Shown: piece after piece, positions 9,784 through 55,937 of the stretch
Numbering within the stretch: position 1 is the first letter of the stretch
Layout of the letters: the number at the start of each line of letters is the position of its first letter
Assembly: GCF_014217805.1 (NCBI RefSeq)
Contig: NZ_CP055156.1
Coordinates: forward strand, 1,802,585 to 1,866,584
Direction of reading: 5' to 3'
Origin: Adhaeribacter swui
GTDB lineage: Bacteria > Bacteroidota > Bacteroidia > Cytophagales > Hymenobacteraceae
DNA length: 64,000 nt
Notes under the pieces: model-generated
Databases searched by the model: none
What the model saw: the letters and a program-made list of their open reading frames with translations, nothing else
What the model was told of the DNA's origin: nothing
Made by a program: the position numbers and the translations under genes

Positions 9784-9999
9784 GCCTTTTTTACTTTTAG
9801 CTTTTGGGTTGATTTCAATGGTTTTTTAGACGCTCTAACCCCAAGGCTACTATCCATAACTTTTCAGAATTTATAATTCTTTTGGGATAAAAAACGCGGT
9901 TATCTTTGTTGTAAAAAGATGGCTTATACCGAGCCGTCCGGCTGAATTTTGCTTTTTACCAAAAAATTTCAGCTAGTTGTCTATCCGATAAATGAATAA

Positions 10000-11376
10000 A
10001 TGGCGAAAATAAAAACCTCTTACTTCTGCCAGAGTTGTGGGGCGCAATCCGCAAAATGGATTGGTCGTTGCCCAGCTTGTGGCGAATGGAATACCTACGT
10101 AGAAGAAGTACTGCAACGCGAAGAAGCAGCCGGACCAGCTTCCTGGAAATCCTCTTCGTCGCTGCAAATAGCAAACAAACCCCGGCCTATTGCCGAAATC
10201 AGCTACTCCGAAGAATTGCGCCTGGATACCCGCGACCAGGAATTAAACCGGGTTTTAGGCGGCGGCATTGTGCCGGGCTCCATGGTTTTAATTGGCGGCG
10301 AACCGGGCATTGGTAAATCTACTTTAATGCTGCAGATTGCCTTAAATTTAAAAAATCAGCGGGTACTCTACATTTCCGGCGAAGAAAGCGAACAGCAAAT
10401 AAAAATGCGGGCCGAACGCCTCGGTGCGCAACACCCCAACTGCTTTATTTTAACCGAAACCGGCACCCAAAATATATTCAAGCAAATTGAGCAACTGCAG
10501 CCCGAAGTATTAATCATCGACTCCATCCAAACTTTGCATTCGGCTTTTATCGAAAGTGGAGCGGGTAGTATTTCGCAGGTGCGGGAATGTACCGCCGAGT
10601 TGTTAAAATACGCTAAAGAAAGCGGTACGCCGGTGTTTTTAATCGGCCATATAACCAAAGAAGGTAACCTGGCCGGCCCTAAAATTCTGGAGCACATGGT
10701 AGATACCGTATTGCAGTTCGAAGGCGACCGCCACATGACTTACCGCATTTTACGTACCACGAAAAATCGTTTCGGTTCTACTTCCGAATTGGGCATTTAC
10801 GAGATGCTGGGTACTGGTTTGCGGCAGGTTAGTAATCCTTCGGAGATATTAATTTCGCAGCGCGAAGAAAACTTTAGCGGCATTACCATTGGCGCCACTC
10901 TAGAAGGCAATCGCCCTTTATTAATTGAAGTGCAAAGTTTGGTTAGCCCGGCTACCTACGGTACGCCGCAGCGTTCCAGTACTGGTTACGATGCCAAACG
11001 GTTAAATATGTTGCTGGCCGTATTGGAAAAACGCAGTGGTTTTAAGTTAGGCTTGCAAGACGTATTTTTAAACATTGCAGGTGGCATTAAAGTAGAAGAT
11101 CCGGCTATTGATTTAGCCGTGTGTGCTTCCATCCTGTCGTCGTTTGAGGATTTAGCTATTCCGCATACTACCTGCTTTGCCGCCGAGGTAGGCTTAAGTG
11201 GCGAGATCCGGGCCGTAAACCGCATCGACAACCGCATCAGCGAAGCCGAAAAGCTGGGTTTTAAAGAAATTTACATTTCTAAGTTTAATTTAAAAGGCAT
11301 CGACCAGAAGAAATTAGGTATAAAAGTAAACGCGGTAAGTAAACTGGAGGAAGTTTTAAGTTCTCTTTTTGGATAA
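10000..11376 (+). CDS. radA: DNA repair protein RadA/Sms
   Basis: N-terminal C4 zinc finger CQSCGAQSAKWIGRCPACGEWNT; Walker A GGEPGIGKST; KNRFG motif; C-terminal Lon-like domain. Confidence 0.9.
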   Translation: MAKIKTSYFCQSCGAQSAKWIGRCPACGEWNTYVEEVLQREEAAGPASWKSSSSLQIANKPRPIAEISYSEELRLDTRDQELNRVLGGGIVPGSMVLIGGEPGIGKSTLMLQIALNLKNQRVLYISGEESEQQIKMRAERLGAQHPNCFILTETGTQNIFKQIEQLQPEVLIIDSIQTLHSAFIESGAGSISQVRECTAELLKYAKESGTPVFLIGHITKEGNLAGPKILEHMVDTVLQFEGDRHMTYRILRTTKNRFGSTSELGIYEMLGTGLRQVSNPSEILISQREENFSGITIGATLEGNRPLLIEVQSLVSPATYGTPQRSSTGYDAKRLNMLLAVLEKRSGFKLGLQDVFLNIAGGIKVEDPAIDLAVCASILSSFEDLAIPHTTCFAAEVGLSGEIRAVNRIDNRISEAEKLGFKEIYISKFNLKGIDQKKLGIKVNAVSKLEEVLSSLFG

Positions 11377-30392: not shown

Positions 30393-30441
30393 AAGCGGCA
30401 GTAAACTAAAGTAATTTATGATTGAATGTTAAACGGCATTA

Positions 30442-30861
30442 TTACCCCCATTTGGTTCGGAGCAATTCCAGGTTGTTATCCAGCAAAGCCTTAATAGCTA
30501 GCAGGGCATCGTACTTGGTTTGGTTGGTTCGGCCAGTGAAGTATTTTTCGTTCAGTTTTTGAAAAAGTCCGAAGAAGTATTTTTTAATTTTTGGGCGTTT
30601 ATAGAAGATGTAAAACTCATAATCTTCTACATCGCCCACAATCGAAATACTCACGCCATGTTTGTTATAGGTATTTTCTATTTCCAGAGAAGGCGAAAAG
30701 TAAATTTTATCGCCTTTGGTCTCGGCTACGTTTACTTCGTTTAGCAGTTTCAGCCAGGGCACTTCGTTGAAAATATAAAAATAATCCTTGCGCTCCATAA
30801 TGGTTAGTTCCACGGCCTCGGGCTCGCAGGGCTTGCAAATACTATATCTGAAAGAAGACAT
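30442..30861 (-). CDS. hypothetical soluble protein (139 aa) in flotillin/AAA+ operon
   Basis: Same-strand ORF with 49-bp and 52-bp gaps to its neighbours; no TM or known motif. Confidence 0.55.
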   Translation of the reverse strand: MSSFRYSICKPCEPEAVELTIMERKDYFYIFNEVPWLKLLNEVNVAETKGDKIYFSPSLEIENTYNKHGVSISIVGDVEDYEFYIFYKRPKIKKYFFGLFQKLNEKYFTGRTNQTKYDALLAIKALLDNNLELLRTKWG

Positions 30862-30913
30862 AAAATTAAAAAATAGGGATTAGCTGCGCTTGGCAGACGC
30901 AGCTAACCCATTT

Positions 30914-33088
30914 TTAAACTAATTCCATACTTCTAACTAGTTTATCCGAGATGCCCATGGAAGTGGCAGTTTGCGTGAGTTCCTTCAGCAAACCGGTGGT
31001 GTTTTCGTCGGCGCTCTTCTGAATCATTTTCAGTAATAAAGCCGAGACACTCAGGTTGCGCACATCTTCTGACTTCATCCCGAACTGATTTAGGAAATAC
31101 TGCAGATTATCGCGGAACTGTACTTTACCGTTTCCGTTAGTATGGAAAAAAGTATCTTTCACAGTGCCCAAAACCTGGCTGTTATCCACTACCCGGTCCA
31201 CGGATTTACCTTTGGTAATCGAACCAATAATCTGGTCGAAGAACATAGTTTCGCCACCCACGATATCGATTTTGGCGGCTTTTAGAGCTTCGGCAATTAC
31301 TTCGGCCTGCGACGCAGCAATGTCTTTCTGTATGTTAATCTGCGCCAGTTCAATGGATTTATCTTTATCTAGGCGAAGTTTAAATTCTTCGTGGTCTTTG
31401 CCCACACCATCTAATTTGCGCATGGCTTCGGCTTTACTTTCAATGCCTTTGGCATCTACGGTAAATTTCTCGCTGTTTACGCGGGCTTCGGCTAGGCCTT
31501 TTTTCTCTTCGGCAATGGCTAAGTTCTCAATTACGTCGGCATCTGCTAAGCCTTTTTCTTTGGCTACTTTGGCAGCTATTAAGCCTACCTTTTCGTCTGC
31601 TTCGGCCTGCGCCTCGGCTTTTACTTTGGTGGCTTTGGCGGCCGCTACGGCTTGGCGTTCGGTTACTACCGCTTCCGCTTCTCCTTCTTTCTGGCGGGCC
31701 AAGGCTTTGGCTTCCATAACCTGGGCTTCGGATAAACCAAGGGCGGCAGCCTGGGTAGCTTCGGCTTCGGCCATTACTTTTAATGCCTGGGCACGGTTAG
31801 CCGCAGAAGCTTGCTGCGCTTCCGAATCAATGAGTAATTGTTTAGCTCGGAACTCGGCGGCCTGGCGGGCGGCTTCGGCGCCTTTAATTTCTTTCACTAA
31901 GGCGGCTTGCGCTACTTGCTCGGCGTTGGTAATGGCAACGGCTTTAACTCGCTCGGCTTCAGCAAAGGCGCGGGTATCTTTAATTTTTTCTTCTTCTTCG
32001 ACTACCGCTTTTTCTACGGTAACCCGCTCCCGGATAATACCCTGAATGTTTTTACGCTCTTCTTCAATGGCTTTTTCTTTTTCAATCTGAGCCAAGGCTA
32101 CAATGCGTTCTTTTTCGTTGGCTTCGAGTAAACGGGCCTGTTCTACGCGTTCAGTTTCCACGGCATCGGTGCGTTGTTTGCTGCGCTCGGCTACTAAAAT
32201 CTGGCGGTCGCGGTTTTGTTCGGCAATTTTTAATTCTTCGTCGGTGGCAATCTTAGCTTTTTCGGCTTTCAGGCGTTCTTCCTGACGTACTTTTTCGGCT
32301 TCGGCAAATTCCCTGGCTTTAATATTGGCAATCTCGCGACGTTGTTTTTCTTCGTTTTCGGCGAGCTGGCGTTCCAGTTCCAGAATGGTTTCCTGCGCTT
32401 CTACGTTTTGTTTTTTAATCGTTTTTTCTTTTTCGCGCTCAATTAAGTTCGATTGTATTTTCTGGCGGGCGGTTAAGTCAATAATTTTTTTAATTCCTTC
32501 GGCATCCAGAATGTTGTTTTCGTTGAGGTTAGTTAGTGGGGTTTGCTCCAGGTAATCAATAGCGCAGTCGTCGAGTACGTAGCCGTTTAAATCGGTGCCG
32601 ATGGTTTGTAAAATCTGGCGTTTAAAGTCGTCGCGGCTTTGGTATAAATCCACAAAATCGAAATGCTTGCCTACGGTTTTTAAAGCTTCGGAGAACTTGG
32701 CATCGAACAAACCTTCCAGGGCGGTATGGTCCGAAGCGCGTTTACAACCAATGGCTTGCGCTACTTGCACCACGTCTTCGGGCGTTTTATTTACCCGTAA
32801 AAAGAAGTTTACTTTAATGTCGGCCCGGAGATTGTCTTTACAAATCAAGCCTTCGGGCCCGGTGCGGGAAATAACGATGGTTTTTAAGGTGATATCCATT
32901 ACCTCTAATTTGTGGATAATGGGTACCACAAAAATGCCGGAGAAGGAAACTTTAGTATCGCCTAAACCCGTCCGGACCATGGCTTCGCCTTGAATGGCTT
33001 TTTGGTACATGCGGATAACAATGGCGATAAAACCAAAAAGTACAACCGCCAGAATAGCAAGAATAGACCAGGATAATTGTGCAATCAT
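30914..33088 (-). CDS. flotillin family / SPFH (band 7) domain protein, YqiK-like, with long coiled-coil tail
   Basis: N-terminal TM; SPFH core (GEAMVRTGLGDTKVSF...VISRTGPEGLICKDNLRADIKVNFFLRV); ~400 aa Ala/Glu/Lys-rich coiled-coil. Confidence 0.85.
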   Translation of the reverse strand: MIAQLSWSILAILAVVLFGFIAIVIRMYQKAIQGEAMVRTGLGDTKVSFSGIFVVPIIHKLEVMDITLKTIVISRTGPEGLICKDNLRADIKVNFFLRVNKTPEDVVQVAQAIGCKRASDHTALEGLFDAKFSEALKTVGKHFDFVDLYQSRDDFKRQILQTIGTDLNGYVLDDCAIDYLEQTPLTNLNENNILDAEGIKKIIDLTARQKIQSNLIEREKEKTIKKQNVEAQETILELERQLAENEEKQRREIANIKAREFAEAEKVRQEERLKAEKAKIATDEELKIAEQNRDRQILVAERSKQRTDAVETERVEQARLLEANEKERIVALAQIEKEKAIEEERKNIQGIIRERVTVEKAVVEEEEKIKDTRAFAEAERVKAVAITNAEQVAQAALVKEIKGAEAARQAAEFRAKQLLIDSEAQQASAANRAQALKVMAEAEATQAAALGLSEAQVMEAKALARQKEGEAEAVVTERQAVAAAKATKVKAEAQAEADEKVGLIAAKVAKEKGLADADVIENLAIAEEKKGLAEARVNSEKFTVDAKGIESKAEAMRKLDGVGKDHEEFKLRLDKDKSIELAQINIQKDIAASQAEVIAEALKAAKIDIVGGETMFFDQIIGSITKGKSVDRVVDNSQVLGTVKDTFFHTNGNGKVQFRDNLQYFLNQFGMKSEDVRNLSVSALLLKMIQKSADENTTGLLKELTQTATSMGISDKLVRSMELV

Positions 33089-33160
33089 GTTTTAGAAAGT
33101 AATTGTAGAAATGCTTTTTAAATTTTGAGAATTGAGTAAGTCTGTTTTTTAAAAATTTTA

Positions 33161-33781
33161 CTAGCTAGCAAGACTTTGGTAAGGCTCTATGAGGTAGAAT
33201 TGCTTGGCCGCGTTGTAATCAATAATTAACCCGGTTTCACCTTTTTTAAGGTAAGCCCCCGATGTAGCTTTCACATTCAGGAGCAGCAGCGATCCGGTGG
33301 TCCGGACGGTAGCCTGCCCCATTTCGGTGGCGGTAACGGGCAAAGTAACCGTGCAAACCCGTCCAATAACCGAGGCTTTGGAATCATGCTCTTTTTCGAG
33401 GGCGGCAAATATTTTAACAAACGGATAGGTTAATACTTTGGAAGCAAGCAGGCTGAAGATGAAAAGGGGTATTAGCAGCACAAAGCCAACCAAACTTTCG
33501 CCGGTATTTAAATAATAGTTAAGGAGTATAGATGCGGCCCAAAAAGGCAAAGCCACAAAACTGAAAAAGATCATGAATGGGATTTTGCCCACGTTAAAGA
33601 AGCCCAAAGCATGATTTAACCAGACGATCGCGTCGGAGCTATCCATTTCCAGATCCATGTCCAGCATGTCTAAATCCAGAATACCCAGGATTACCACTGC
33701 CCAATAAAGCAGGGCAAATAGCAAAAGGATGCTAGGAATGATGTTGACGCTGGCACTAGCCGCCTGTAAAAACTCCGACAT
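33161..33781 (-). CDS. NfeD-like / YqiJ-like membrane protein (DUF1449-like) with C-terminal OB-fold
   Basis: Multi-TM N-terminus, C-terminal soluble beta-rich segment; gene order with flotillin mirrors E. coli yqiJ-yqiK. Confidence 0.65.
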   Translation of the reverse strand: MSEFLQAASASVNIIPSILLLFALLYWAVVILGILDLDMLDMDLEMDSSDAIVWLNHALGFFNVGKIPFMIFFSFVALPFWAASILLNYYLNTGESLVGFVLLIPLFIFSLLASKVLTYPFVKIFAALEKEHDSKASVIGRVCTVTLPVTATEMGQATVRTTGSLLLLNVKATSGAYLKKGETGLIIDYNAAKQFYLIEPYQSLAS

Positions 33782-36959: not shown

Positions 36960-39900
36960 ATGAAATACCTTTTAGCTTCCCTTATCCGGGAAAATACTTT
37001 CGGAGGAAGCTTCTTGCCACATTGGTTGATTAATAACCGATTTAATACCTTTTTCACGCCCCGATTAGTACCAATCCGAGTAGTTGCAGTATTGCTTTTA
37101 TTATTTACCGCTATGCAAGCCCAGGCTCAAGAAGTTTTGTTAGGACTCACGTCGGATTATGGTCCGCAAGGTGGCGGCACGGCCTTTTCTATTAAAACCA
37201 ATGGGAATGATTTTGCTGTTCATAAAACTTTTACCAAACTAGGTTCAAACCCGGGCGGCGAGCTGATTCAGGGCAAAGATGGTAACTTTTACGGGATGAC
37301 TGCCCGGGGAGGTGCCAGTGATTTCGGAACCATTTTTAGAATGACGCCGGCTGGTACAATTACTATTATGCATCATTTTGCCGGTTTCGATGGCAATGCG
37401 CCGGGTAGTAATAATCTTATACAAGCTGCCGACGGTAACTTTTACGGTATGACCTCTTCTGGCGGTATGAATAATAATGGAGCGGAACCTGGCATTGCTT
37501 TTAGAATAACTCCTGGCGGGGAGTATAAGGTAATTTACAACTTTACGCGTAATGAAGGTTACCGTCCTTACGGCGATTTACTGCAAGGCCCGGATGGCAA
37601 CTTTTACGGCATGACGTATTATGGCGGTACTTTTGATAAAGGTACGGTTTTTAAATTAACGCCATCAGGCACCTATACCGTATTGCATCATTTTAATGGT
37701 ACGTCCCGGGGTGGCTGGCCTACCGGCAATTTAGTGCTAGGAAACGATGGCAATTATTACGGCGTTACTACCAGTGCTGGCGCCAACCAGTTAGGTACTA
37801 TTTTTAAAATAACCACCGCTGGCACTTTTACTTTGTTACATACTTTTGAATTAGCTACTGGTGGTACTCCGGTGGGTAGCTTGGTAAAGGGTAAAGACGG
37901 GAACTTCTATGGCGTAACTACCGCGGGCGGCGATAATTATAGCGGTACTATTTTCCGAATAACGGCCAATGGCGATTACAAAGTACTGCACCATTACGGC
38001 TTCGATGCCATAGGAAATACTCCAAAAAGAAGTTTGATTTTGGGAAAAGATGGAAACCTGTACGGTACCACCATGAACGGCGGAGACTGGTTTAATGGAA
38101 CCATTTACAAAGTAACGCCGAGTGGTATTGTAAGTGCTTTACATGCCTTTTCACCTTCGGAGGATGGTGGCCGGGCAAGCGGTCTAATGCAAGCTGCTGA
38201 TGGTTATTTATACGGTATGAACGAAATTGGCGGGCCTCAAGGTGATGGTGTTATCTATCGTATTTTACCCAATGGTACCAATTTTAAAAAATTAGTAGAT
38301 CTGCCCGGTTCTTTTGGCGGAGTAGCTCCCCGGGGTGGGTTGGTACAAGGCCCCGATGGCTTTTTCTACGGCATGACCGAATGGGGCGGTGAGTATAATC
38401 ACGGTACTATTTTTAGGTTGTGCTCCGATGGCTCTTATAAAATCTTACGGTCACTGGATGATGTAAACGATGGAGGATATCCCCGGGGTGACTTGCTGCT
38501 GGGGAAAGACGGCAATCTTTACGGTTTAACCAGCCATGGTGGAGTTAATGGCAGTGGTACGTATTTCCGGATAACACCCCAAGGTAATTTTACGGTCTTG
38601 TATTCCTTCCAAAACGACGATACCGGCTACTCGCCCTGGGGAACTTTACTGGATGGCAACGATGGTTATTATTATGGCATGACCAATGCCGGAGGCGAGT
38701 TATTATCCGGCGTTATCTTTCGGGTTACCCCCACTGGTGATTATACCGTATTACACAGCTTTGATAATTATGAGGATGGTTCTTCGCCCCAAGGTAATTT
38801 AATTAAAGGTAAAGACGGTAATTTTTACGGCCTTACCAACGTAGGCGGCGATTACAATACCGGTACTTTTTTTAAAATGGCACCCGATGGCACCGTTACC
38901 AAACTGCATTCTTTCTACCAGTTCGAAGATGGCGATAAACCATCTGGTAGTCTGGTGCAAGGCAAAGACGGTAATTTTTACGGGATGGCTGCCCGGGGAG
39001 GTAAGAATGGGCATGGTACTATTTTCCGTTTTACACCAACCGGAAAAATAACCGTTCTGAAGTTTATGACGGATGAAATCTCGGATGGTGCTAACCCCCA
39101 TGGTAGTCTGGTAATGGATAAGGAAGGCAATTTTTATGGTTTAACCTGGGGTGGTGGGCATAACTTTAGCGGTGTTATTTTTAAAATTACGCCCAAAGGG
39201 AATTATACCGTTCTGCACCATTTAGATGGACCCAAAGAAGGCAGAAGCGCTTTCGGTAGTTTAATTTTCCAGAAGGCTAATCCAACGGCATACGCGCAGC
39301 GTGTTACCACAGCCGTGAACACGGCTAAAGTTATTACCCTAAAAGGAACTGGTGGTAGTCCGCTGGTCTACGAAATTATATCCCAACCAAAGAATGGTAC
39401 CCTAAGTGGTTCCGGCGCCAAACGTACCTACACGCCTAAATCTGATTTTAGTGGTACAGATAGCTTTACTTACCGGGTAAACTGGGGCTGCCAAAGTTCT
39501 ACGGTTGCAACCATTACCATTCAGGTAGGTACCCCGGTTGCCACTGCTATCCGGATTAATGCCGGTGGAAATGCTTTAACTACCACGCAAGGTAACTTTA
39601 GCGCCGATGCTTATTTTACCGGGGCAACTACTGTTTCTACTACGGCTGCTACCATTGCCAATACCGCTGATCCTGGCCTATACCAGGATAACCGTCGGGC
39701 GAGTGCAAACAACGGCAGCTTCCAGTATGCTATTCCGGTAACCAACGGGCAGTACACCGTAAAGCTGCATTTTGCCGAAACTTTCCATACTACTGCCGGA
39801 AAACGCCAATTTAACGTTACCGCTGAAGGGAGTAGTTGGCTCAACAATTATGATATCTACGTCGCTGCCGGAGGTGCCCGCCAAGCCATAGTAGCTACCC

Positions 39901-40286
39901 GCAATGTAACGGTAAGCGATGGAACCCTAGATTTAAACTTCATTTCCAAGGTAGATAAAGCTTGTGTATCCGCGATTGAAGTATTACCCGCTTCCGGAAC
40001 CGAACAAATTGAAGCAGCTACGCCAACAAAAGAAGAGACAGGTTTGGTAACTCGCTTATATCCTAATCCGGTTACTGACCAATTTACCGTAGAACTAAAA
40101 GTACCCGCCGAGCAAGTTAGTTTCTCGATTATAGATGCTTCAGGGATAACCGTAAAAACTCATATTTCAACCCGGGCCCAAGCTGATAAACTGGAGTTCC
40201 TGGTGGACCAACTGCAACCAGGCTTGTATACTTTGCTGGTACATGCCAATAACAATCAGCAGGTTTTGCGTTTTTTAAAAAATTAG
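36960..40286 (+). CDS. T9SS-secreted repeat protein: GloVer-like ~50-aa tandem repeats, Ig-like domain, malectin-like domain, Por C-terminal sorting domain
   Basis: ~14 repeats of GxDGNFYGMT..GG..xGTIF(R/K)xTPxG; Ig-like domain near aa 780-860; malectin-like IRINAGG...YTVKLHFAE; C-terminal LYPNPVTDQFTVELK...VLRFLKN T9SS type A signal. Start codon uncertain because of a long pre-signal extension. Confidence 0.75.
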   Translation: MKYLLASLIRENTFGGSFLPHWLINNRFNTFFTPRLVPIRVVAVLLLLFTAMQAQAQEVLLGLTSDYGPQGGGTAFSIKTNGNDFAVHKTFTKLGSNPGGELIQGKDGNFYGMTARGGASDFGTIFRMTPAGTITIMHHFAGFDGNAPGSNNLIQAADGNFYGMTSSGGMNNNGAEPGIAFRITPGGEYKVIYNFTRNEGYRPYGDLLQGPDGNFYGMTYYGGTFDKGTVFKLTPSGTYTVLHHFNGTSRGGWPTGNLVLGNDGNYYGVTTSAGANQLGTIFKITTAGTFTLLHTFELATGGTPVGSLVKGKDGNFYGVTTAGGDNYSGTIFRITANGDYKVLHHYGFDAIGNTPKRSLILGKDGNLYGTTMNGGDWFNGTIYKVTPSGIVSALHAFSPSEDGGRASGLMQAADGYLYGMNEIGGPQGDGVIYRILPNGTNFKKLVDLPGSFGGVAPRGGLVQGPDGFFYGMTEWGGEYNHGTIFRLCSDGSYKILRSLDDVNDGGYPRGDLLLGKDGNLYGLTSHGGVNGSGTYFRITPQGNFTVLYSFQNDDTGYSPWGTLLDGNDGYYYGMTNAGGELLSGVIFRVTPTGDYTVLHSFDNYEDGSSPQGNLIKGKDGNFYGLTNVGGDYNTGTFFKMAPDGTVTKLHSFYQFEDGDKPSGSLVQGKDGNFYGMAARGGKNGHGTIFRFTPTGKITVLKFMTDEISDGANPHGSLVMDKEGNFYGLTWGGGHNFSGVIFKITPKGNYTVLHHLDGPKEGRSAFGSLIFQKANPTAYAQRVTTAVNTAKVITLKGTGGSPLVYEIISQPKNGTLSGSGAKRTYTPKSDFSGTDSFTYRVNWGCQSSTVATITIQVGTPVATAIRINAGGNALTTTQGNFSADAYFTGATTVSTTAATIANTADPGLYQDNRRASANNGSFQYAIPVTNGQYTVKLHFAETFHTTAGKRQFNVTAEGSSWLNNYDIYVAAGGARQAIVATRNVTVSDGTLDLNFISKVDKACVSAIEVLPASGTEQIEAATPTKEETGLVTRLYPNPVTDQFTVELKVPAEQVSFSIIDASGITVKTHISTRAQADKLEFLVDQLQPGLYTLLVHANNNQQVLRFLKN

Positions 40287-40679: not shown

Positions 40680-42059
40680 TTAAAAAAACATCGTCTTATT
40701 CAACGCTACAACCGCCGCTTTAAAATCTTCGCGGGCCACTACAAACTGCACATTTACTTTCCGGAGCGAGAAGCCGGCACTCTTGATATTAATACTATTT
40801 TCGGCTAAAGCCCCGGCAGCTTTCGCCAATACCCCTGGCTGATCGATGTTGGAGCCAATCATGCACACAATGGCTACTTCTTCCACGGTTACTTCCTGGA
40901 ACTGGGTTTCCAAGGCTTGTTTTAAATCCGGTTTATAATCTTTGGCCCAGATAACCATAGAAATGCTGTTAGCGCTGGTAGCTTTAAAAATATAACTGAT
41001 GCCAAACTGCTGGAAAGCCTGCATCACGGCAAAGTCGGAACCTACGGTGCCCACCATTAAAGGATCGTAAATATCCAGGATAATCACTTTGTTGGTGCCG
41101 GTAATTACCTCTACGCGCTTGTTGGGCCACACGTAGTCGCGGGTAATTAAAGTGCCCGGATGGTCGGGTTCAAAGGTATTTTTAATGCGCAGATTAATGC
41201 CATTTATTTCCAAAGGTTTGCTGGCCTTCGGGTGAATAGCTTCCATGCCCACATCGGCTAGTTGGTCGGCCACATCGTAATTAGTATTTACTACCGGCAC
41301 GCAGTTTTCCAGGCCCACCAAAGCCGGGTCGGCGGAAGATAAGTGGTATTCTTTGTGAATAATGGCTTCCTGCGGTTTTAAGGCCACGGCTATTTTACAA
41401 AAGGTTACTTCGGAATAACCCCGGTCGAATTCCCGCATAATGCCTTCGGTGCCTTTGGTATAGCCAGTAACGATGGTAATGGTTTTTTCAAAATCAATGC
41501 CTTGCAGCGAATGCGCAATGCGCTCATCAATGGTATACGGCTCGTGGTCGTGGAACCCGCTTAAATCTACCAGAGTAGCGTTCACGCCCTGGTTCTGTAG
41601 GATATTCACAAAATTAAAAGCCGAATGCGCTTCGCCGATGGAGGCTAAAATCTCGCGGGCCGCTTGTAAAATGCTTTCGGCGCTTACGTAACCGGAGGCC
41701 AGCACATTAACTAGGTTTTCCAGGAATTGCTGTGCTTCGTGTAAACGCTGCCGGATAAAATTATTGGCTACTTCTACGTTTAGGCCCAGGTGCTCGTAGC
41801 TTTTATTAATTTCTTGTAGCTTTTCGGATACCAGGTTTAACGACTGGTGAAAATCTTTGTGCCCCACAATATGGTGGTAAACGCCGGGTTCACCGGTTTT
41901 TTTATTTTCGAGGAGCAAATTGGTAACTCCGGCAAAAGCCGATACCACAAATACCCGGTTGTAGAGCTGGTCACCGGTACGACCATGATAAATGATATTT
42001 TCTAAAACTTTGTCCAGCGCACTCATACTAGTGCCGCCAATTTTTTCAATAGTAAGCAT
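40680..42059 (-). CDS. lysC: aspartate kinase
   Basis: Start trimmed to MLTIEKIGGTSMS (KxGGTS signature); C-terminal tandem ACT domains. Confidence 0.85.
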   Translation of the reverse strand: MLTIEKIGGTSMSALDKVLENIIYHGRTGDQLYNRVFVVSAFAGVTNLLLENKKTGEPGVYHHIVGHKDFHQSLNLVSEKLQEINKSYEHLGLNVEVANNFIRQRLHEAQQFLENLVNVLASGYVSAESILQAAREILASIGEAHSAFNFVNILQNQGVNATLVDLSGFHDHEPYTIDERIAHSLQGIDFEKTITIVTGYTKGTEGIMREFDRGYSEVTFCKIAVALKPQEAIIHKEYHLSSADPALVGLENCVPVVNTNYDVADQLADVGMEAIHPKASKPLEINGINLRIKNTFEPDHPGTLITRDYVWPNKRVEVITGTNKVIILDIYDPLMVGTVGSDFAVMQAFQQFGISYIFKATSANSISMVIWAKDYKPDLKQALETQFQEVTVEEVAIVCMIGSNIDQPGVLAKAAGALAENSINIKSAGFSLRKVNVQFVVAREDFKAAVVALNKTMFF

Positions 42060-42540
42060 GTTTATTAAAGTGGATTCTATTTCCAGTTTTTGTTTTGTTC
42101 CGGCCAAAGCACCAGCCCATAATTCTTAATTACCTGCCCGGCTTACCGTTATTTTTTTAAATTTTTTACCTGCTGCGCCGTTGTAATAAGCTATTTTTTT
42201 AAAATTTCTGATTTTTAGATACCATCAGAAGCCAGCTGCGCTTTTATTTCAAACTTCAAACTTACTAAAATGAGAGTAAGCATGCCAAAATGAAGCAGTT
42301 ATTTTACCAGAAGTGGTAAATTTTTTCTAAGGTTACTTCTTTAAACCTGAGTGCAAAAACTTACCTACACCAACCATAATTAGCCGTATAAATCAAATTA
42401 GAAAAGTAATTTCTATCCCATTTCCCAGTTTATTACCGTCATTCTGAAAGAATAGCTCATTTTTGAATTTATTCTTTTCTTGTCTCGAACTCCCATTTTA
42501 CAAGCCGAGCAACGAACAACTAAAAACGAACAACTATCCA

Positions 42541-43884
42541 CTATAACTGGTATTCCTGAATTTTCCGGTAAAGCGTGGTTAAACCAATGTGCAGCAGACG
42601 AGCCGTTTCAGTTTTATTGCCGTGGGTTTGTTGCAGGATTTTAGCAATATGATTGCGTTCCACGGTACTCAGGGCAGTTTCGCTGATTTCAGAAGCTGGT
42701 AGCGGCGTGAACTGCTGAAACTCCGGGGGCAACAAGGGGAGAGTTAGCGTATCACTATCGGCCAGAATAACGGCGCGTTCTATCACATTTTTTAATTCGC
42801 GGATGTTGCCCTGCCAGGGATATTCCTGCAGCTTTTGCAGAAAAGCCGCATCCATTTTGTTAATACGTCGGGTTAGTTTAGCCGCGTAGCGGTTCATGAA
42901 AAAAGTAGCAATGTCCGGAATATCGGCTTTCCGGTCGCGGAGTGGGGGTACTGTAATTTTAAAACTAGACAGGCGGTAGTATAAATCCAGGCGAAAATGC
43001 CCGGCTTCGGCTTCTTGTTGCAGGTTCCGGTTAGTGGCCGCGATAATGCGCACATTTACTTGCACCGGCTTGGTATCGCCGATCTTGGTAAAAGTCTGGG
43101 ATTCCAGTACCCGCAGAAACTTCGCCTGCAATTCTAAAGGCAGTTAGCCGATTTCGTCTAAAAACAATGTGCCCCCGTGGGCTTCTTCAAACAAGCCTTT
43201 TTTATCGGTGAGCGCACCGGAAAAAGCGCCTTTGCGGTAGCCAAATATTTCGGATTCGAGTAAATCTTTCGGGAAAGCGCTGCAGTTTACCGCCACAAAG
43301 GGTTTTGTATTACGGCTACTGCCGCCATGGATGGCCTGGGCAAATAATTCTTTCCCGGAGCCGGTTTCGCCCTCTAATAAAACCGTGGAATTGGTAGGCG
43401 CTACCCGGCCGGCCAGGTCTTTAGCTTGTTTAATGGCCGCCGAATGCCCCAAAATGGCCTCAAAACTGTATTGTCGGCTCACCTGCTTTTCCAGCTCTAA
43501 TACGCGTTGCTGCAAAGCGGCTTTTTCCATGGCTCGGCTAACCAGCGGAATAATTTTATCGTTATCGTCGCCTTTAATTAAATAATCAAAAGCCCCGTTT
43601 TTCATGGCAGTTACCCCATCTGCAATAGTACCATACGCGGTGAGTACAATAATTTCGATGGCTGGGTAAAGTGCTTTTATTTTGGCGGTAAGTTCTATGC
43701 CGTTGCTATCCGGCAGTTTTACGTCGCTGAGGACCAATTGAATGGGTTCTTTTTCGAGTAAACGCAAACCGGCTTTGCCCGTGGGAGCTTCAAAAACCTG
43801 GTAGCCTTCTAAGCCAATAATGCGGGCCAGTAAACCGCGCAGCTTATCTTCGTCGTCGATAATTAATATATTTCCGTTGGTCAT
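42541..43884 (-). pseudogene. sigma-54-dependent Fis-family response regulator (NtrC-like) interrupted by an in-frame TAA
   Basis: 43144..43884 encodes REC + start of sigma-54 AAA domain (GETGSGKE Walker A, GAFSGA motif) ending ...[11 protein letters not shown]. The same frame continues LPLELQAKFLRVLESQ... (42541..43143) through the Fis HTH. The TAA occupies the position of the conserved Glu in DEIGELPLELQ, so it is a GAA-to-TAA change. Confidence 0.75.
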
Positions 43885-43910: not shown

Positions 43911-46900
43911 TTACCGGCGCGGTCGTACAATATGCCTTTCCTGGCGGATTAAGGTGCCGGTTCGGAGTGAGTCTTCCACCAGCAAATCTATCTGTTCCCG
44001 GAACTCATCGGTGAGCCGGGGAAAGCCGAACAGCTTACTGGTAGCAGGCGCAATGTCTTCAGCGTTGATGCCGTACGATTCGGTAATTACTTTTTGAATG
44101 ACCAGCTTTATTTCTTCCGGGGCAATTACATCCAGGTCCCGGGCAGACGCGGGTAATTGGCTGCGGTCGCGTGGTTCCGGTTGCTTCATGGAGGGAAGCC
44201 ATAAAAAATCACCTTGTCGCTGGTAAGCATTTTGTTGCAAGCCAAAATTGATGGCAGCTTCCAGGGCGGCTTTTATCCGGGGACCAACTTTAGGTACTTC
44301 GGCGGCTTCGGTTATCCGCCGGCTTACTTCCGTTACGTGTACCGGACTTTCTACCTGCACTACCTGCCACACCCACTGGGCCAAAGTAGCTACAGGTACT
44401 TCGGGTAAGGGCATATTTATATTTTTAATCGGAAGGTTAGCTACCTGGTACAGGGGCAAACCCGTTTTTTGCTCCGGGCTTGCAGCCGTATGCCGGCTAA
44501 CCAAGGCATCTTCTGGCTTTAATTTGGCCGACGAACCAGGCGTTTTAGACGCGGAAGATTTACCCATAGCTTGTTCTATGGCAGCTACTAGTCGGTTTAG
44601 TTCAGCTTCGGGGTTCCGGAACCAATCAGTGCTCCAGACGTGGTACAGATTCCAGCCCAAACTTTCCAGCACCGACTGACGTAAGCGGTCCCGGTCGCGG
44701 GCCGAGCGGGCACTGTAATACGTAGCGCCGTCGCATTCAATGCCGAGTACATATCTGCCCGGTTCCTGCGGGTCAACCACGGCAAAATCCACGTAAAATC
44801 CGGCGGAGCCTACTTTTGGTTTTAATTGATAACCTAATTTCGTCAAGGCCTGGTAAACGATTTCTTCGAAGGGCGCCGCCTCATCTTCTGATGCAATAAT
44901 GTTTTCCCCGGTTGTTAAATGGCCGTTCTGTGCGTAGGTTAAAAAAGTTTTAAAGGCTTGCACCCCGCGCGCAGGCGTGCGGTTTAAGTCAATATCGTCG
45001 GGAGATAGGTTGGTAAATATTTCACAGCGCAGGCGGGCGCGGGTAATAAGTACGTTTAAACGACGTTCGCCACCGGTGCTGTTTAAAGGGCCAAAGTTCA
45101 TGGTTAAGTTACCTTCGGCGGTGCGGCCGTAGCCGGTACTGATAAAAATTACATCGCGCTCATCGCCCTGCACGTTTTCTAAATTTTTTACAAAAAACGG
45201 TTCGTTGGGGTGGGCCTGAAAATAGGCTTCGGCTTCCGGATCGGTTTTGCGTAAGGTTTCGAGTTGGTTGATAATGGCCTGCATCTGCGCCATGCTGAAA
45301 GCAGCCACGCCTAAGGTTAGTTCGGGCATGGTGCGGGCGTGCTGCATAATAGCTTGAGCTACGGTTTCGGCTTCCTGCGGATTGGTGCGCGTTTTGCCGC
45401 GGTCGTAAAAGGTATGGGGCAGGTGATGGTAAATTAAACCAATTTCCTGGCGGCCCGCATCCGGGCTCGGGAAAATAACCAAGCGGTTTTCGTAAAATTC
45501 CTGGTTAGATACGGCAATCAGCGATTCGTGGCGGCTGCGGTAATGCCAGCGCAACATGCGCTGCGGAGCGCCCTGGGCCGCGAACAAACCCAGAATACTT
45601 TCTACATCCGTAGTAATATTTTCTTCTTCTACTTCTTCCTCGTTTACCAGCGAATCAAAGAAACTGGTGGGCGGCATTTGTTTGCTATCGCCCACTACCA
45701 CGGCTTGTTTAGCGCGCATAATAGCCCCAAACGCATCTACGGGCTTTACCTGACTGGCTTCGTCGAAAATAACCAAATCAAATTGCAAGCACTCGGGCGG
45801 AAGAAAGTTAGCAATGGAAAGCGGTCCCATCATAAATACCGGTTTTATCGCCTGAATGGCGTTCCCGGCTTTAGTCATTAGTTGCCGGATAGGTAAATGA
45901 CGCGCTTTTTTCTCAAATTCGCGACGCAGAATACCTAACTGGCCCCCGGCTTGGTGCTGGGGCAATCTTTGCCAATGCGCTAGCGCGAGCTTAGCCCGGT
46001 TATACGCCAGCATTAAAGCATCTAGTTCGTTAAATTTTAAGATTACCTCTTCGTGGCCAGCCCGTTGAAACTGCTGCAAAGCCGGGCGTTCGGCGTAGGC
46101 TTTTTCCAGCAACGCTTCGAGCCAGGTTTGTCGGAAAGCGGGGTACAGGTAAGCGCCAGCTTCCGGCCAGGTTAAGGTCTGGTTTACTATTTCTTGCAGG
46201 CCTTCTTGTTGTAAGCGAGTTGTTAAATTATTCCAGCTTACCAGCTGGTGCAACTCGGGTAAATGAGTTTGCCATTGTTCCAGTAAAGAAACCTGATTGG
46301 TGAATGGTAAGGCATCCAGATAATTTTCTTCACCAAAACGGAGAATTTCATCCAGTACCAGCAACTGTTTTACTTCGGCTAGGCGGGCGCGATGGTTTAA
46401 CAAATGTTGCTCCAGTTGCCGGGCGTGTGGTTGGAGAGAAGCTAAATTAGGCTCCCCGGCCAAATAATCGAGTAGGGTTGCCGGTACTGTCTGGTTGGTT
46501 ACATCCTGATGCCAATCGGTAAGCCAGTTTTTTAAAATATTTAGATGCGGCCAATCGGAGCGTTCCGCCCGCCATTGTTTCCCGAAAATGGTTTGCCCAA
46601 ATTCCTGATATTGCTGGATAACTTTTTGCTGCCGGTTAGCTTCCAGTATGGCATCGATTAATTTTAATTGTTCATTGGTACTCTCGGGCAAAACGGTTTT
46701 GCTCCAACCAGCTAGCTTTTTTTTGCTCCGGCGGTAAGCACTAGATAAGAAACGCCACCATTTCTCCCCGTAGGTCATTAAGTTCTCCCGCACTTCCAGC
46801 GCTTCGGTAGTAGCGTCCCAGGCTTCGGGCAGCAGCTTATCCTGGAATTGATCCTGGATAGTGGCGTAGGCTTTTCCGGCAGTTAGTAATTGTTCCAGCT

Positions 46901-48653
46901 CAGCTTGTTGGTGCAACCAGCTACTTGATTTTACCGCTACCCCAGCGTAATCAGGGCTATTTAGCAAACGATTTACCAGGGCACTTAAAGCCGTGGTTTC
47001 GGAGCGGTTAGTGGGCAATTCTACCGAAATAATTAAAGCTAATTGTTGCGCGGTTGGCTGCAGCACCATTATTGCCTGGCGGGCTGCAGTTAAAGCCTGC
47101 GCTATTTGGTTTTCTTCGGCGGGCAGTAATTGCTGGCGCTGGCTTCCCCAGAATAATAGTTTAGTAGGTTCGCCTGTTTGTTTTAAGCGGGCCTGTAATT
47201 CCTGAACCAACGCATCGCGCCGGCGAAATTCATCGCGCGACCAGTTCAATAGGGTTGGTAAAGCAAATCGGGGTAAGTCTGTCTGCGGGTACTGTTGCCG
47301 CAATTGCAGCAATTCGCCATATACATCGTACGTGGTTAAATCGCTTTGGGCAATGGGTTTGTTTACGGCTTCGCAGTAGCTGTTCAGGCGTTCGCGCAAT
47401 TGCAAGAGTAAGTTTAGTTCGCTTTCCTGTTCTTTCACCTTGGGCTTTCCTAAGTTCAGGGTACGGGCGAGTTCTTTGGTTACTTCTTTTTTATTTGTTT
47501 TATGGCTGTGCAATTCCAGACAGGCTTCACCCAAGCCAACTTTATCCAATCGGCGTTTTACCACTTCCAAAGCCGCCATTTTTTCGGCCACGAACAACAC
47601 CGTTTTGCCTTGCCCGATGGCTTCCGAAATAAGATTAGTAATGGTTTGCGATTTACCGGTACCAGGAGGGCCTTGAATAATTAAATTGCGACCTTGGTTT
47701 ACATCCAGAATGGCCAGCGTTTGCGACGAATCGGCATCTACAACCTGACGTACTTCGGTGGGGTTTAAATGCGGGTCGAGGTGGTCTTCGTCGGAGATGA
47801 GCGGAGCTGGTTCCTGAAAGCCGTTTTCGTGCAGCAAGGCTTGCAGCAAAGGGTGCCGCGCAGGACCTTTTTCATCAGACCAATTAGCGGCATCCAGGTC
47901 GTTGTACATCATAAATTTCCCGAAAGAGAAGAAGCCCAGCGCAATTGCCGTAGAATTAATCAGCCAACCTTTACGCCCCACAATTTCTTTCCAGACTTCA
48001 TCAAAATAACCGGTAACATCTACTTCTTCGGTATCAGGCAGTTCCGGAATATGAAGGTCAAAATCGGCTTTCATCTTGGCAATCAATGATAAATTTTCGC
48101 CTACTTCGCCGCCGGTATACCGCAATTGAAACCGCTCCCGCGCCGAGGATCGCACTAGTTCAACGGGTATTAATAAGAGCGGCGCCTGTCTTGCATCCTC
48201 GGTGTTGCTGGCTTCGTACCAAGTAAGCGTGCCTAGGGCCAGGTACAGTATATTTATGCCTTGTTCTTCCACAAACAGCCGGGAGGCATGATAGGTCTGC
48301 AATAGGCGGTTTTCCAGTTTGGCCGTGGTTTCGCGGGTTTGCAGCTTATTGTCGGTTTGGGCCGGGGTAATGGTTATCGTTTCGCCGGGGCTTTTTCTAT
48401 CTGCCAATGGGTTTTGGATGGTATCCAGGATGCTGTTGGCCGTTTTGCTATCCAGAGCCAGGAAGGTCATGGCTTTGCCTTCGGTCACCAGCAAGCGGTA
48501 CACTTCGGCGGGTACTTCGTTTACAATTTCTACTCCTTTGGCTTGCAAGGGCCGGTAGTTCAGGAGGGGATTACGTAAACTTAAATCGAGTAAATCGCGG
48601 CGCGAAGCTTCCAAACGGGTACTTACTTGGGATACGGCAGTCATGGGCAACAT
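43911..48653 (-). CDS. DUF4011-type large Upf1-like SF1 helicase with C-terminal DUF559/PD-(D/E)xK-like endonuclease and DUF3320-like tail
   Basis: 1580 aa. N-terminal LLDLSLRNPLLNYRP region (DUF4011-like). Helicase motif I IIQGPPGTGKSQTITNL, motif II VIFDEASQV, later motifs present. C-terminal GFYVDFAVVD...GIECDGATYYS...D..R...LGW..YHVW (Vsr/DUF559-like). Terminal ~200 aa DUF3320-like. Confidence 0.8.
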   Translation of the reverse strand: MLPMTAVSQVSTRLEASRRDLLDLSLRNPLLNYRPLQAKGVEIVNEVPAEVYRLLVTEGKAMTFLALDSKTANSILDTIQNPLADRKSPGETITITPAQTDNKLQTRETTAKLENRLLQTYHASRLFVEEQGINILYLALGTLTWYEASNTEDARQAPLLLIPVELVRSSARERFQLRYTGGEVGENLSLIAKMKADFDLHIPELPDTEEVDVTGYFDEVWKEIVGRKGWLINSTAIALGFFSFGKFMMYNDLDAANWSDEKGPARHPLLQALLHENGFQEPAPLISDEDHLDPHLNPTEVRQVVDADSSQTLAILDVNQGRNLIIQGPPGTGKSQTITNLISEAIGQGKTVLFVAEKMAALEVVKRRLDKVGLGEACLELHSHKTNKKEVTKELARTLNLGKPKVKEQESELNLLLQLRERLNSYCEAVNKPIAQSDLTTYDVYGELLQLRQQYPQTDLPRFALPTLLNWSRDEFRRRDALVQELQARLKQTGEPTKLLFWGSQRQQLLPAEENQIAQALTAARQAIMVLQPTAQQLALIISVELPTNRSETTALSALVNRLLNSPDYAGVAVKSSSWLHQQAELEQLLTAGKAYATIQDQFQDKLLPEAWDATTEALEVRENLMTYGEKWWRFLSSAYRRSKKKLAGWSKTVLPESTNEQLKLIDAILEANRQQKVIQQYQEFGQTIFGKQWRAERSDWPHLNILKNWLTDWHQDVTNQTVPATLLDYLAGEPNLASLQPHARQLEQHLLNHRARLAEVKQLLVLDEILRFGEENYLDALPFTNQVSLLEQWQTHLPELHQLVSWNNLTTRLQQEGLQEIVNQTLTWPEAGAYLYPAFRQTWLEALLEKAYAERPALQQFQRAGHEEVILKFNELDALMLAYNRAKLALAHWQRLPQHQAGGQLGILRREFEKKARHLPIRQLMTKAGNAIQAIKPVFMMGPLSIANFLPPECLQFDLVIFDEASQVKPVDAFGAIMRAKQAVVVGDSKQMPPTSFFDSLVNEEEVEEENITTDVESILGLFAAQGAPQRMLRWHYRSRHESLIAVSNQEFYENRLVIFPSPDAGRQEIGLIYHHLPHTFYDRGKTRTNPQEAETVAQAIMQHARTMPELTLGVAAFSMAQMQAIINQLETLRKTDPEAEAYFQAHPNEPFFVKNLENVQGDERDVIFISTGYGRTAEGNLTMNFGPLNSTGGERRLNVLITRARLRCEIFTNLSPDDIDLNRTPARGVQAFKTFLTYAQNGHLTTGENIIASEDEAAPFEEIVYQALTKLGYQLKPKVGSAGFYVDFAVVDPQEPGRYVLGIECDGATYYSARSARDRDRLRQSVLESLGWNLYHVWSTDWFRNPEAELNRLVAAIEQAMGKSSASKTPGSSAKLKPEDALVSRHTAASPEQKTGLPLYQVANLPIKNINMPLPEVPVATLAQWVWQVVQVESPVHVTEVSRRITEAAEVPKVGPRIKAALEAAINFGLQQNAYQRQGDFLWLPSMKQPEPRDRSQLPASARDLDVIAPEEIKLVIQKVITESYGINAEDIAPATSKLFGFPRLTDEFREQIDLLVEDSLRTGTLIRQERHIVRPRR

Positions 48654-55729: not shown

Positions 55730-55937
55730 AGGTGCAAGAGTTTGACGCTAAACTGTTCGAGCGTTCAGCGAGTTTTTAGCGTCTTGACTTTTTTGGTTCT
55801 TTTTGTGTCAAGACAAAAAGAACAAATACACTAGCAATGAAACAGCTTCACTCTGAAATCATAGTTATAAAGTGGCTATGCGAACAAGAATCTACTGCTA
55901 GAATAGCAAGTCACGGAAGTAACTTCCGCGCCATAGG
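55730..55937 (-). repeat. structured ~200-bp intergenic repeat (family B/C), copy 2 (inverted relative to 888-1090)
   Basis: rc contains ...gtcaagacaaaaagaac.. and the terminal CTATGGCGCGGAAGTTACTTCCGTG palindrome. Confidence 0.8.

What the first reader, a model, noticed from the sequence alone, without database searches (positions are those of the whole stretch)
43120..43160. Sigma-54 response regulator split by a single in-frame TAA replacing the conserved Glu of the DEIGELPLELQ motif
Read on the minus strand, ...GTLFLDEIG is followed by TAA and then, in the same frame, LPLELQAKFLRVLESQ... continues through the Fis HTH. A GAA-to-TAA point change therefore separates REC plus half the AAA domain (246 aa) from the rest (196 aa). 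This could be a recent pseudogenisation, a sequencing error, or a site of stop-codon readthrough. It is an orphan regulator with no adjacent histidine kinase and lies directly downstream of the giant helicase-nuclease.
Basis: seen in the sequence. Interest (0 to 1): 0.55.

Follow-up and report, generated by a model that had tools for sequence, protein, structure and literature searches.

The report
Nonsense-mutated potassium-pump regulator gene
A single G-to-T change has put a stop codon in the middle of an otherwise perfectly preserved sigma-54 response-regulator gene of Adhaeribacter swui (the regulator that in relatives sits next to the Kdp potassium pump), which makes it an ordinary, very young pseudogene or a base-call error rather than a recoding site.

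Summary
On the minus strand, 43884..42541 is a REC / sigma-54 AAA+ / Fis-HTH regulator gene with one in-frame TAA at 43146-43144. It takes the place of exactly one Pfam profile position. That position is GAA or GAG in four orthologous genes, and Glu in 118 and Asp in 2 of 120 homologues.

The window is from Adhaeribacter swui. The gene aligns without gaps to its A. pallidiroseus orthologue (94% aa). dN/dS is 0.02 before the stop and 0.05 after it. The A. swui branch has fewer amino-acid changes after the stop (2) than the intact orthologue's branch (8). The stop is therefore very young, or a base-call error.

TAA ends 30 of 42 genes in the window, and no orthologue carries the stop, so programmed readthrough is not supported.

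New context: 55 of 85 homologous loci have kdpA, usually with kdpB and kdpC, directly downstream. In A. pallidiroseus the regulator lies about 130 kb from kdpFABC-porin-KdpD-kinase. The "orphan" is therefore most likely a displaced Kdp activator. A. swui keeps KdpA and a 68% paralogue.

The truncated product lacks the second half of the ATPase and the DNA-binding domain, so it is a predicted null allele. This is ordinary and of low interest.

The parts
42541..43884 (-). Whole disrupted gene: sigma-54-dependent response regulator (REC, AAA+ sigma-54 interaction domain, AAA lid, Fis-type HTH). It has 447 codon positions plus the terminal TAG and one internal TAA.
   Evidence: Translation; Pfam domains on the two pieces; gap-free alignment to four intact 447-448-aa orthologues; best solved relative is Aquifex NtrC1 4l4u, E 1.2e-102.
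43144..43146 (-). Premature TAA (followed by C) at codon 247, replacing GAA/GAG (Glu), the residue three positions after the Walker B Asp-Glu.
   Evidence: the column is E 118 / D 2 in 120 homologues.
43147..43884 (-). N-terminal piece of 246 aa. It holds REC (residues 6-112, putative phospho-acceptor Asp54), the linker, Walker A GETGSGKE (172-179), the GAFSGA loop (219-224) and Walker B LFLDE (240-244).
   Evidence: Pfam Response_reg 1.8e-25 and Sigma54_activat positions 1-103 of 168; motifs read from the translation.
42541..43143 (-). C-terminal remnant: 200 codons in the same frame plus TAG. It holds the rest of the AAA+ core, the AAA lid and the Fis HTH. The only candidate restart codon is TTG at 43131-43129.
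   Evidence: Pfam Sigma54_activat 105-167, AAA_lid_14 6.9e-25, HTH_8 7e-13; ORF list; dN/dS 0.052 against A. pallidiroseus.

Best explanation
The locus is the Adhaeribacter swui copy of a Bacteroidota NtrC-type (REC, sigma-54 AAA+, Fis HTH) response regulator. In relatives this regulator is encoded directly upstream of the kdpFABC potassium-pump operon. A single G-to-T transversion changed Glu247 (GAA) to UAA. Translation then ends just after Walker B. The 246-aa product keeps the receiver domain, Walker A, the GAFSGA sigma-54 contact loop and Walker B. It lacks the second half of the ATPase core (where sensor I, the arginine fingers and sensor II of this family lie), the lid and the DNA-binding HTH. 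It cannot form an active ATPase ring or bind enhancer sites, so it is a null allele. The lesion is evolutionarily very recent: it is private to this strain or culture, or arose shortly before sequencing.

Shown: the stop; its uniqueness among orthologues; strong purifying selection on both halves up to the present; the kdp association of the family; and the presence of KdpA and of a paralogous regulator in A. swui.

Inferred: that the regulator activates kdp from a sigma-54 promoter when phosphorylated by the KdpD-domain protein and kinase pair; that the truncated product is inactive; and that the paralogue or constitutive K+ uptake makes the loss tolerable.
For: Stop and domain split.

GAA/GAG in four orthologous genes with a gap-free alignment; E 118 / D 2 of 120 homologues.

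Source is A. swui: exact protein matches QNF32732-QNF32740. The numbering M20 32734, [malectin 32735], [aspartate kinase 32736], [helicase 32737], [S41 32738], [277 aa 32739], S41 32740 leaves no accession for this gene. Only the end points are matched accessions; the bracketed ones are assigned by gene order. Neither half is in the 15-billion-protein collection. Both points fit a gene already annotated as a pseudogene.

Constraint: against A. pallidiroseus, dS is 0.86 and dN/dS is 0.022 for the N part and 0.052 for the C part. The two intact orthologues compared with each other give 0.065 and 0.090. Amino-acid changes after the stop, polarised with an outgroup: A. swui branch 2, A. pallidiroseus branch 8 (one search agrees). 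A rough Poisson bound puts any neutral period at less than about 4% of the branch.

Assembly quality: all 14 neighbouring genes shared with A. pallidiroseus are intact and close to the lengths called there; three window ORFs run further upstream to a TTG.

Function: 55 of 85 homologous loci carry kdpA downstream of the regulator, 51 also kdpB and 47 kdpC. These include the metagenomic relatives at 87%, 82% and 80% identity. A. pallidiroseus has kdpF-A-B-C, a BBP2 porin, a KdpD-domain protein and a HAMP-PAS-HisKA kinase about 130 kb from its regulator, beside the same DinB gene that flanks the regulator in L082. A conserved TGGCAY-N5-TTGGC element lies about 255-336 nt upstream of kdpA in 4 of 4 close relatives.

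A. swui has KdpA (QNF33798) and a 68% paralogue (QNF33792).

The closest solved structure is NtrC1, which has the identical [12 protein letters not shown] motif.

Precedent for a response regulator co-cistronic with kdpFABC and a KdpD split into two proteins: Desulfovibrio vulgaris DVU3334-3339 (PMC3333781).
Against: Without reads, a real mutation cannot be told apart from a consensus base error, and the complete absence of any further decay fits either. The kdp link is by gene neighbourhood in relatives only. In A. swui and A. pallidiroseus the gene is not next to kdp. The sigma-54-like element upstream of kdp departs from the canonical TTGC at -12, and a relaxed pattern found it in only 16 of 53 loci. 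The A. swui genome outside the window could not be read, so the arrangement around QNF33792-33798 is inferred from accession numbers alone.
Confidence: 0.72

Rival explanations
1. Sequencing or assembly error. The genome really has GAA, the gene is intact and functional, and the T is a wrong consensus base.
For: The gene is otherwise flawless: there are no gaps against orthologues, dN/dS after the stop is 0.05, and the A. swui branch has fewer changes than the intact orthologue's branch. An error predicts exactly this. Only one assembly of the species was available. No metagenomic contig carries either allele.
Against: The lesion is a substitution in a non-repetitive context (ATCGGCTAACTGCC). 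From general knowledge, residual consensus errors in finished long-read genomes are mostly homopolymer indels. No other gene in the 64-kb window looks broken: 14 of 14 neighbours shared with A. pallidiroseus are intact. A very young real mutation predicts the same pattern.
Confidence: 0.22
2. The interruption is tolerated functionally. Either low-level UAA readthrough restores some full-length activator, or termination followed by re-initiation at TTG 43131 yields two polypeptides that reassemble. Alternatively, the 246-aa REC fragment acts as a phosphate sink or dominant-negative partner.
For: UAA-C is a rare terminator context among the genes here (2 of 30 TAA stops). A TTG lies 13 nt downstream of the stop in frame. 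The downstream half is perfectly preserved.
Against: No orthologue or homologue has a stop here (0 of 124), so nothing indicates a selected recoding site. UAA is the dominant genuine terminator (30 of 42). From general knowledge, known bacterial recoding uses UGA (Sec) or UAG (Pyl). There is no tRNA or known RNA element nearby. The break lies inside the alpha/beta core of the AAA+ domain, just after Walker B. Preservation of the second half is equally explained by the youth of the mutation.
Confidence: 0.04
3. Old, decaying relic. The regulator became useless when it was separated from the kdp operon and has long been a pseudogene.
For: The gene is not adjacent to kdp in either A. swui or A. 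pallidiroseus. A paralogue exists in A. swui close to KdpA by accession number.
Against: dN/dS is 0.036 over a dS of 0.86 since the split from A. pallidiroseus, which shares the displaced arrangement. There is no excess of substitutions on the A. swui branch and there are no indels. The displaced gene was therefore maintained by selection almost up to the present.
Confidence: 0.02

Closest known systems
NtrC-family bacterial enhancer-binding response regulators (for example Aquifex aeolicus NtrC1, PDB 4l4u and 1ny5)
   Same: Same three-domain architecture, REC / sigma-54 AAA+ / Fis HTH. Full-length match to NtrC1 at E 1.2e-102 with an identical [12 protein letters not shown] Walker B segment. 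Pfam domains all well above cut-off.
   Different: The reading frame is interrupted by UAA at the Glu after Walker B. The sigma-54 contact loop reads GAFSGA rather than GAFTGA. No NCBIfam equivalog cut-off is reached; the best is AtoC at 418 bits against a cut-off of 714. It is therefore not one of the named subfamilies.
Response regulator co-cistronic with kdpFABC and a KdpD split into two proteins, as in Desulfovibrio vulgaris DVU3334-3339 (PMC3333781)
   Same: In relatives the regulator is encoded next to kdpFABC. In A. pallidiroseus the operon ends with a separate KdpD-domain protein and a separate histidine kinase, the same split that the paper describes for DVU3336 and DVU3335.
   Different: Different phylum, and orthology was not tested. 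Here the regulator gene has moved away from the operon (about 130 kb in A. pallidiroseus), and in A. swui it carries a stop. Regulation of kdp by this protein has not been tested in any Bacteroidota that I could find in the library.
Ordinary nonsense-mutation pseudogenes in bacterial genomes
   Same: A single disabling point mutation relative to intact orthologues. No protein accession appears to be assigned in the deposited annotation (inferred).
   Different: No secondary decay is visible yet, so it is at the youngest end of the range and cannot be told apart from a base-call error.

Membership tests
NtrC-type sigma-54-dependent response regulator (bEBP) | N-terminal receiver domain with a phospho-acceptor Asp | tested here: met
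   PF00072 E 1.8e-25 over residues 6-112; Asp54 lies in [10 protein letters not shown]. Its assignment as the acceptor rests on alignment with NtrC1.
NtrC-type sigma-54-dependent response regulator (bEBP) | AAA+ sigma-54 interaction domain with Walker A, Walker B and a GAFTGA-type loop | tested here: met
   PF00158 positions 1-103 and 105-167 on the two pieces; [14 protein letters not shown] and LFLDE are read.
NtrC-type sigma-54-dependent response regulator (bEBP) | C-terminal Fis-type HTH | tested here: met
   PF02954 E 7e-13 on the downstream piece.
NtrC-type sigma-54-dependent response regulator (bEBP) | One uninterrupted reading frame encoding all three domains | tested here: not met
   In-frame TAA at 43146-43144. 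It is a disrupted member, that is, a pseudogene of the family.
Kdp-operon-linked sigma-54 regulator of Bacteroidota | Gene adjacent to kdpFABC | tested here: not met
   There is no kdp gene in the 64-kb window. Adjacency holds for 55 of 85 homologous loci, including the 87%, 82% and 80% relatives. The A. pallidiroseus orthologue lies about 130 kb from kdp.
Kdp-operon-linked sigma-54 regulator of Bacteroidota | Sigma-54 type promoter in front of the kdp operon | tested here: inconclusive
   TGGCAY-N5-TTGGC is conserved in 4 of 4 close relatives. A relaxed pattern hits 16 of 53 loci against 3.3% of control segments. The canonical TGGCAC-N5-TTGC is found in only 1 of 54.
Kdp-operon-linked sigma-54 regulator of Bacteroidota | Cognate K+-sensing kinase (KdpD domain plus histidine kinase) in the genome | not testable with these tools
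   It is present at the A. pallidiroseus kdp locus.
Programmed stop-codon readthrough or recoding site | In-frame stop conserved among orthologues | tested here: not met
   Sense codon in 4 of 4 orthologous genes and in 120 of 120 homologous proteins.
Programmed stop-codon readthrough or recoding site | Stop codon reassigned, or accompanied by a dedicated tRNA or RNA element | tested here: not met
   TAA terminates 30 of 42 genes in the window. No tRNA and no Rfam family is in the window. A suppressor elsewhere in the genome was not testable.
Nonsense-mutation pseudogene | Disabling mutation relative to intact orthologues | tested here: met
Nonsense-mutation pseudogene | The mutation is real in the organism's DNA | not testable with these tools
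   This needs reads or resequencing. Metagenome scans for either allele found nothing.

The most novel reading that the evidence does not exclude
The UAA is not a dead end. Either rare readthrough, or termination and re-initiation at the TTG 13 nt downstream, would yield a low level of active regulator from a naturally split AAA+ domain. Alternatively, the REC-plus-half-ATPase fragment may have acquired a role as a phosphate sink that damps the paralogous K+ two-component pathway.
Probability: 0.03. Interest if true: 0.5.

Novelty: already known. Interest (0 to 1): 0.1.

Why it matters
It matters little on its own: a single nonsense mutation in one regulator of one sequenced strain is routine, and the public annotation has most likely already flagged it as a pseudogene. 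The modest value lies in the context. The gene belongs to a widespread but, as far as the searched library shows, experimentally uncharacterised class of Bacteroidota sigma-54 regulators encoded beside kdpFABC. If the mutation is real, A. swui would be a natural knockout for testing whether that class controls the high-affinity K+ pump, and whether the paralogue linked to a Kup transporter can substitute for it.

Tried and rejected
- **Genome scan:** It returned no Adhaeribacter genome, and the cap then prevented a second scan, so the rest of the A. swui genome could not be read.
- **Exact-product look-ups:** These found nothing for the 246-aa fragment, the helicase, the A. swui M20 peptidase, the paralogue P0011 or A. 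arboris P0002. That collection lacks the A. swui assembly.
- **Metagenome scans:** Two scans for the local sequence, with N at the mutated base, found no contig. There is no population evidence for either allele.
- **Sigma-54 promoter in the window:** The canonical pattern gave 1 match with 1 mismatch against 4.76 expected by chance. The kdp-type TGGCA-N6-TTGG pattern gave none. No remnant target promoter lies near the gene.
- **Other local scans:** Rfam found no family and ARAGORN found no tRNA. Promoter and terminator scans around the gene were at background level.
- **Family naming:** NCBIfam reached no equivalog cut-off.
- **Literature:** Searches for sigma-54 control of kdp in Bacteroidota found nothing direct. 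A. swui papers are only community surveys.
- **Old-relic hypothesis:** Rejected on the dN/dS and branch counts.
- **Link to the upstream helicase-nuclease:** Rejected because that neighbourhood is shared only with A. pallidiroseus.

Full report
**1. Observation**

On the minus strand the window reads ...GTLFLDEIG, then TAA (43146-43144), then LPLELQAKFLRVLESQ... in the same frame, down to a TAG that ends at 42541.
- The upstream ORF (43884..43144) encodes 246 aa. The downstream remainder is 200 codons.
- Pfam puts Response_reg (E 1.8e-25) and Sigma54_activat profile positions 1-103 on the first piece. It puts Sigma54_activat 105-167, AAA_lid_14 and HTH_8 on the second. Exactly one profile position is occupied by the stop.
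- The finding is therefore real and at the stated coordinates.

**2. Source and annotation status**

Four neighbouring proteins match Adhaeribacter swui proteins exactly: QNF32732, 32733, 32734 and 32740, from a 5,968,113-bp contig.
- Counting genes between the M20 peptidase (32734) and the 505-aa S41 peptidase (32740) uses up every intervening accession: malectin protein, aspartate kinase, helicase, and two more. None is left for the regulator.
- Neither half of the regulator exists as a protein in the 15-billion-sequence collection.
- I infer that the deposited annotation already treats the gene as a pseudogene. I could not read the record itself.

**3. What the codon was**

The gene aligns over its full length to four intact orthologues. 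There are no gaps apart from one extra codion-sized insertion (three bases) just before the stop in one of them.
- The orthologues are A. pallidiroseus P0001 (94% aa) and metagenomic P0003 (87%), P0004 (82%) and P0005 (80%).
- At the stop position they have GAA, GAA, GAG and GAA, so the lesion is a single G-to-T transversion.
- Across the 120 best homologues the column is Glu in 118 and Asp in 2, within an invariant F-L-D-E-x-G context.
- The closest solved structure, Aquifex NtrC1 (4l4u, E 1.2e-102), has the identical [12 protein letters not shown] segment.

**4. Age of the lesion**

Measured against A. pallidiroseus, dS is 0.86.
- dN/dS is 0.022 for codons 1-246 and 0.052 for codons 248-447.
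- The slightly higher value in the second half is intrinsic. The two intact genes, A. pallidiroseus and P0003, give 0.065 and 0.090 for the same halves.
- Differences were polarised with P0003 as outgroup. After the stop, the A. swui branch carries 2 amino-acid changes and the A. pallidiroseus branch 8. Nucleotide changes are 40 against 42. A five-outgroup version gives the same picture.
- A rough Poisson bound puts any period of neutral evolution after the stop at less than about 4% of the A. swui branch.
- The downstream half has therefore been under purifying selection essentially until now. The stop is either very young or not real.

**5. Real mutation or error**

This cannot be settled without reads.
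- In favour of a real mutation: it is a substitution in a non-repetitive context, and all 14 genes that the window shares with the A. pallidiroseus locus are intact and close to the lengths called there. The assembly does not look error-prone here.
- From general knowledge, residual errors in finished long-read assemblies are mainly homopolymer indels. I could not verify how this genome was sequenced.
- Two metagenome scans for the local sequence with either base found nothing.
- I put a real mutation at about 0.72-0.75 and an error at about 0.2.

**6. Readthrough or recoding**

Nothing supports this.
- TAA terminates 30 of 42 genes in the window, so it is the ordinary stop codon.
- No orthologue or homologue has a stop at this position.
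- The window holds no tRNA and no Rfam family.
- UAA is not the codon used by known bacterial recoding systems (general knowledge).
- The +4 base is C, a context used by only 2 of the 30 TAA terminators. A TTG lies 13 nt downstream in frame. A trace of readthrough or re-initiation cannot be excluded, but a split just after Walker B, inside the alpha/beta core of an AAA+ domain, is unlikely to give an active protein.

**7. What the gene is for**

- Of 85 loci encoding homologues, 55 carry kdpA downstream of the regulator. 51 also have kdpB and 47 have kdpC.
- Within the window's own clade:
  - P0003 lies in DinB, regulator, two genes, kdpA-B-C, BBP2 porin (L082).
  - P0005 lies directly upstream of kdpA (L084).
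  - P0004 lies in regulator, aspartate kinase, kdpA (L085).
- In A. pallidiroseus the regulator sits, as in the window, between the helicase-nuclease and the aspartate kinase, at about 5.40-5.42 Mb. The cluster DinB, kdpF-A-B-C, BBP2 porin, KdpD-domain protein, HAMP-PAS-HisKA-HATPase kinase lies at about 5.54-5.56 Mb on the same contig.
- The regulator, together with the aspartate kinase gene, was therefore moved away from the operon in the common ancestor of A. swui and A. pallidiroseus. It stayed under strong selection afterwards (point 4).
- Upstream of a small ORF and kdpF, the four close relatives share TGGCAY-N5-TTGGC, which resembles a sigma-54 -24/-12 promoter. In more distant loci the motif is variable: 16 of 53 loci match a relaxed pattern against 3.3% of control segments. 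This support is only moderate.
- A precedent exists in Desulfovibrio vulgaris DVU3334-3339: a response regulator co-cistronic with kdpFABC, with KdpD split into a sensor protein and a kinase (PMC3333781).
- A. swui still encodes KdpA (QNF33798, 89% identical to the L082 protein) and a 68% paralogue of the regulator (QNF33792), six accession numbers away.
- In A. aerolatus that paralogue clade sits in a cluster of regulator, BBP2 porin, kinase and Kup K+ transporter.
- The regulator reaches no NCBIfam equivalog cut-off.

**8. Mechanism proposed**

- Normally, the kinase at the kdp locus phosphorylates the receiver (putative acceptor Asp54). The AAA+ domain oligomerises and uses ATP to open the sigma-54 promoter of kdpFABC. 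This step is inferred.
- In A. swui, translation ends after Gly246. The product lacks the second half of the ATPase core, the lid and the HTH, so it should be inactive. The missing parts are shown by the domain map; inactivity is inferred.
- The loss may be tolerated because of the paralogue, or because of K+-replete growth conditions. This is speculative.

**9. Other reader statements**

- "No adjacent histidine kinase" is correct for the window: Pfam scans of the ORFs across all 64 kb found none.
- "Directly downstream of the giant helicase-nuclease" is correct, with a 26-nt gap. That neighbour is shared only with A. pallidiroseus. It is a full-length match to the PADLOC defence candidate PDC-S37. 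I see no functional connection.

**10. Verdict**

The finding is a correctly observed but ordinary nonsense lesion, either a very young pseudogene or a base-call error, in a displaced Kdp-type sigma-54 regulator of A. swui. Interest is low (0.1) and the novelty class is "already known".

Noticed in passing
window 43911-48653 (-): The 1580-aa DUF4011 / SF1 helicase / MTES_1575 nuclease / DUF3320 protein matches the PADLOC phage-defence candidate PDC-S37 over its full length (2059.8 bits) and Hhe in part. It is 88.8% identical and syntenic in A. pallidiroseus.
   Followed up: partly
window 25443-33781 (-): A block of four genes lies between the TM2 and PLD-like genes: a 1649-aa DUF3686/DUF7902/AAA ATPase, then 139-aa, 724-aa and 206-aa proteins with no Pfam, NCBIfam (1649-, 724- and 206-aa proteins only) or PADLOC match. 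A. pallidiroseus has only a single 139-aa gene at that place. It may be an inserted island of unknown function.
   Followed up: partly
window 36960-40286 (+): A 1108-aa Malectin / Big_9 / T9SS-sorting-domain protein lies between the aspartate kinase and the M20 peptidase. At that place A. pallidiroseus has only a 51-aa ORF.
   Followed up: no
window 889-910 (+), 4626-4647 (+) with 4706-4727 (-), 55914-55935 (-); L081 about 9840-9990: The exact 22-mer TATGGCGCGGAAGTTACTTCCG occurs four times in intergenic gaps of the window, against 0 expected. One pair forms a 102-nt unit with perfect terminal inverted repeats. Two other copies share about 110 further bases. In A. pallidiroseus a ~164-nt copy with the same inverted ends is inserted at the very 5' end of the orthologous regulator gene, flanked by a ~26-nt imperfect duplication that includes the ATG. 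This looks like a MITE-like repeat family shared by the two species.
   Followed up: partly
L087 about 9740-10000; also L082, L084, L085 upstream of kdpA: A conserved TGGCAY-N5-TTGGC element is followed by a small conserved ORF of about 30 codons that precedes kdpF. Further upstream there is a conserved hairpin-like ACCCT-ACCAAAATG-AAGGGT segment.
   Followed up: partly
L086 10001-16475 (A. aerolatus); A. swui QNF33792-QNF33798: The paralogous sigma-54 regulator clade (68% identity) sits in a cluster of regulator, BBP2 porin, HAMP-PAS kinase and Kup K+ transporter. In A. swui its accession is six away from KdpA. This suggests two K+-uptake two-component modules side by side.
   Followed up: no
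window 40680-42107 (-); L085 3756-4808: An aspartate kinase gene (NCBIfam PRK09181 equivalog, 646.8 bits) follows the regulator in A. swui and A. pallidiroseus. In metagenomic contig L085 it lies between the regulator and kdpA. It appears to have been inserted into the regulator-kdp junction before the regulator was separated from the operon.
   Followed up: partly
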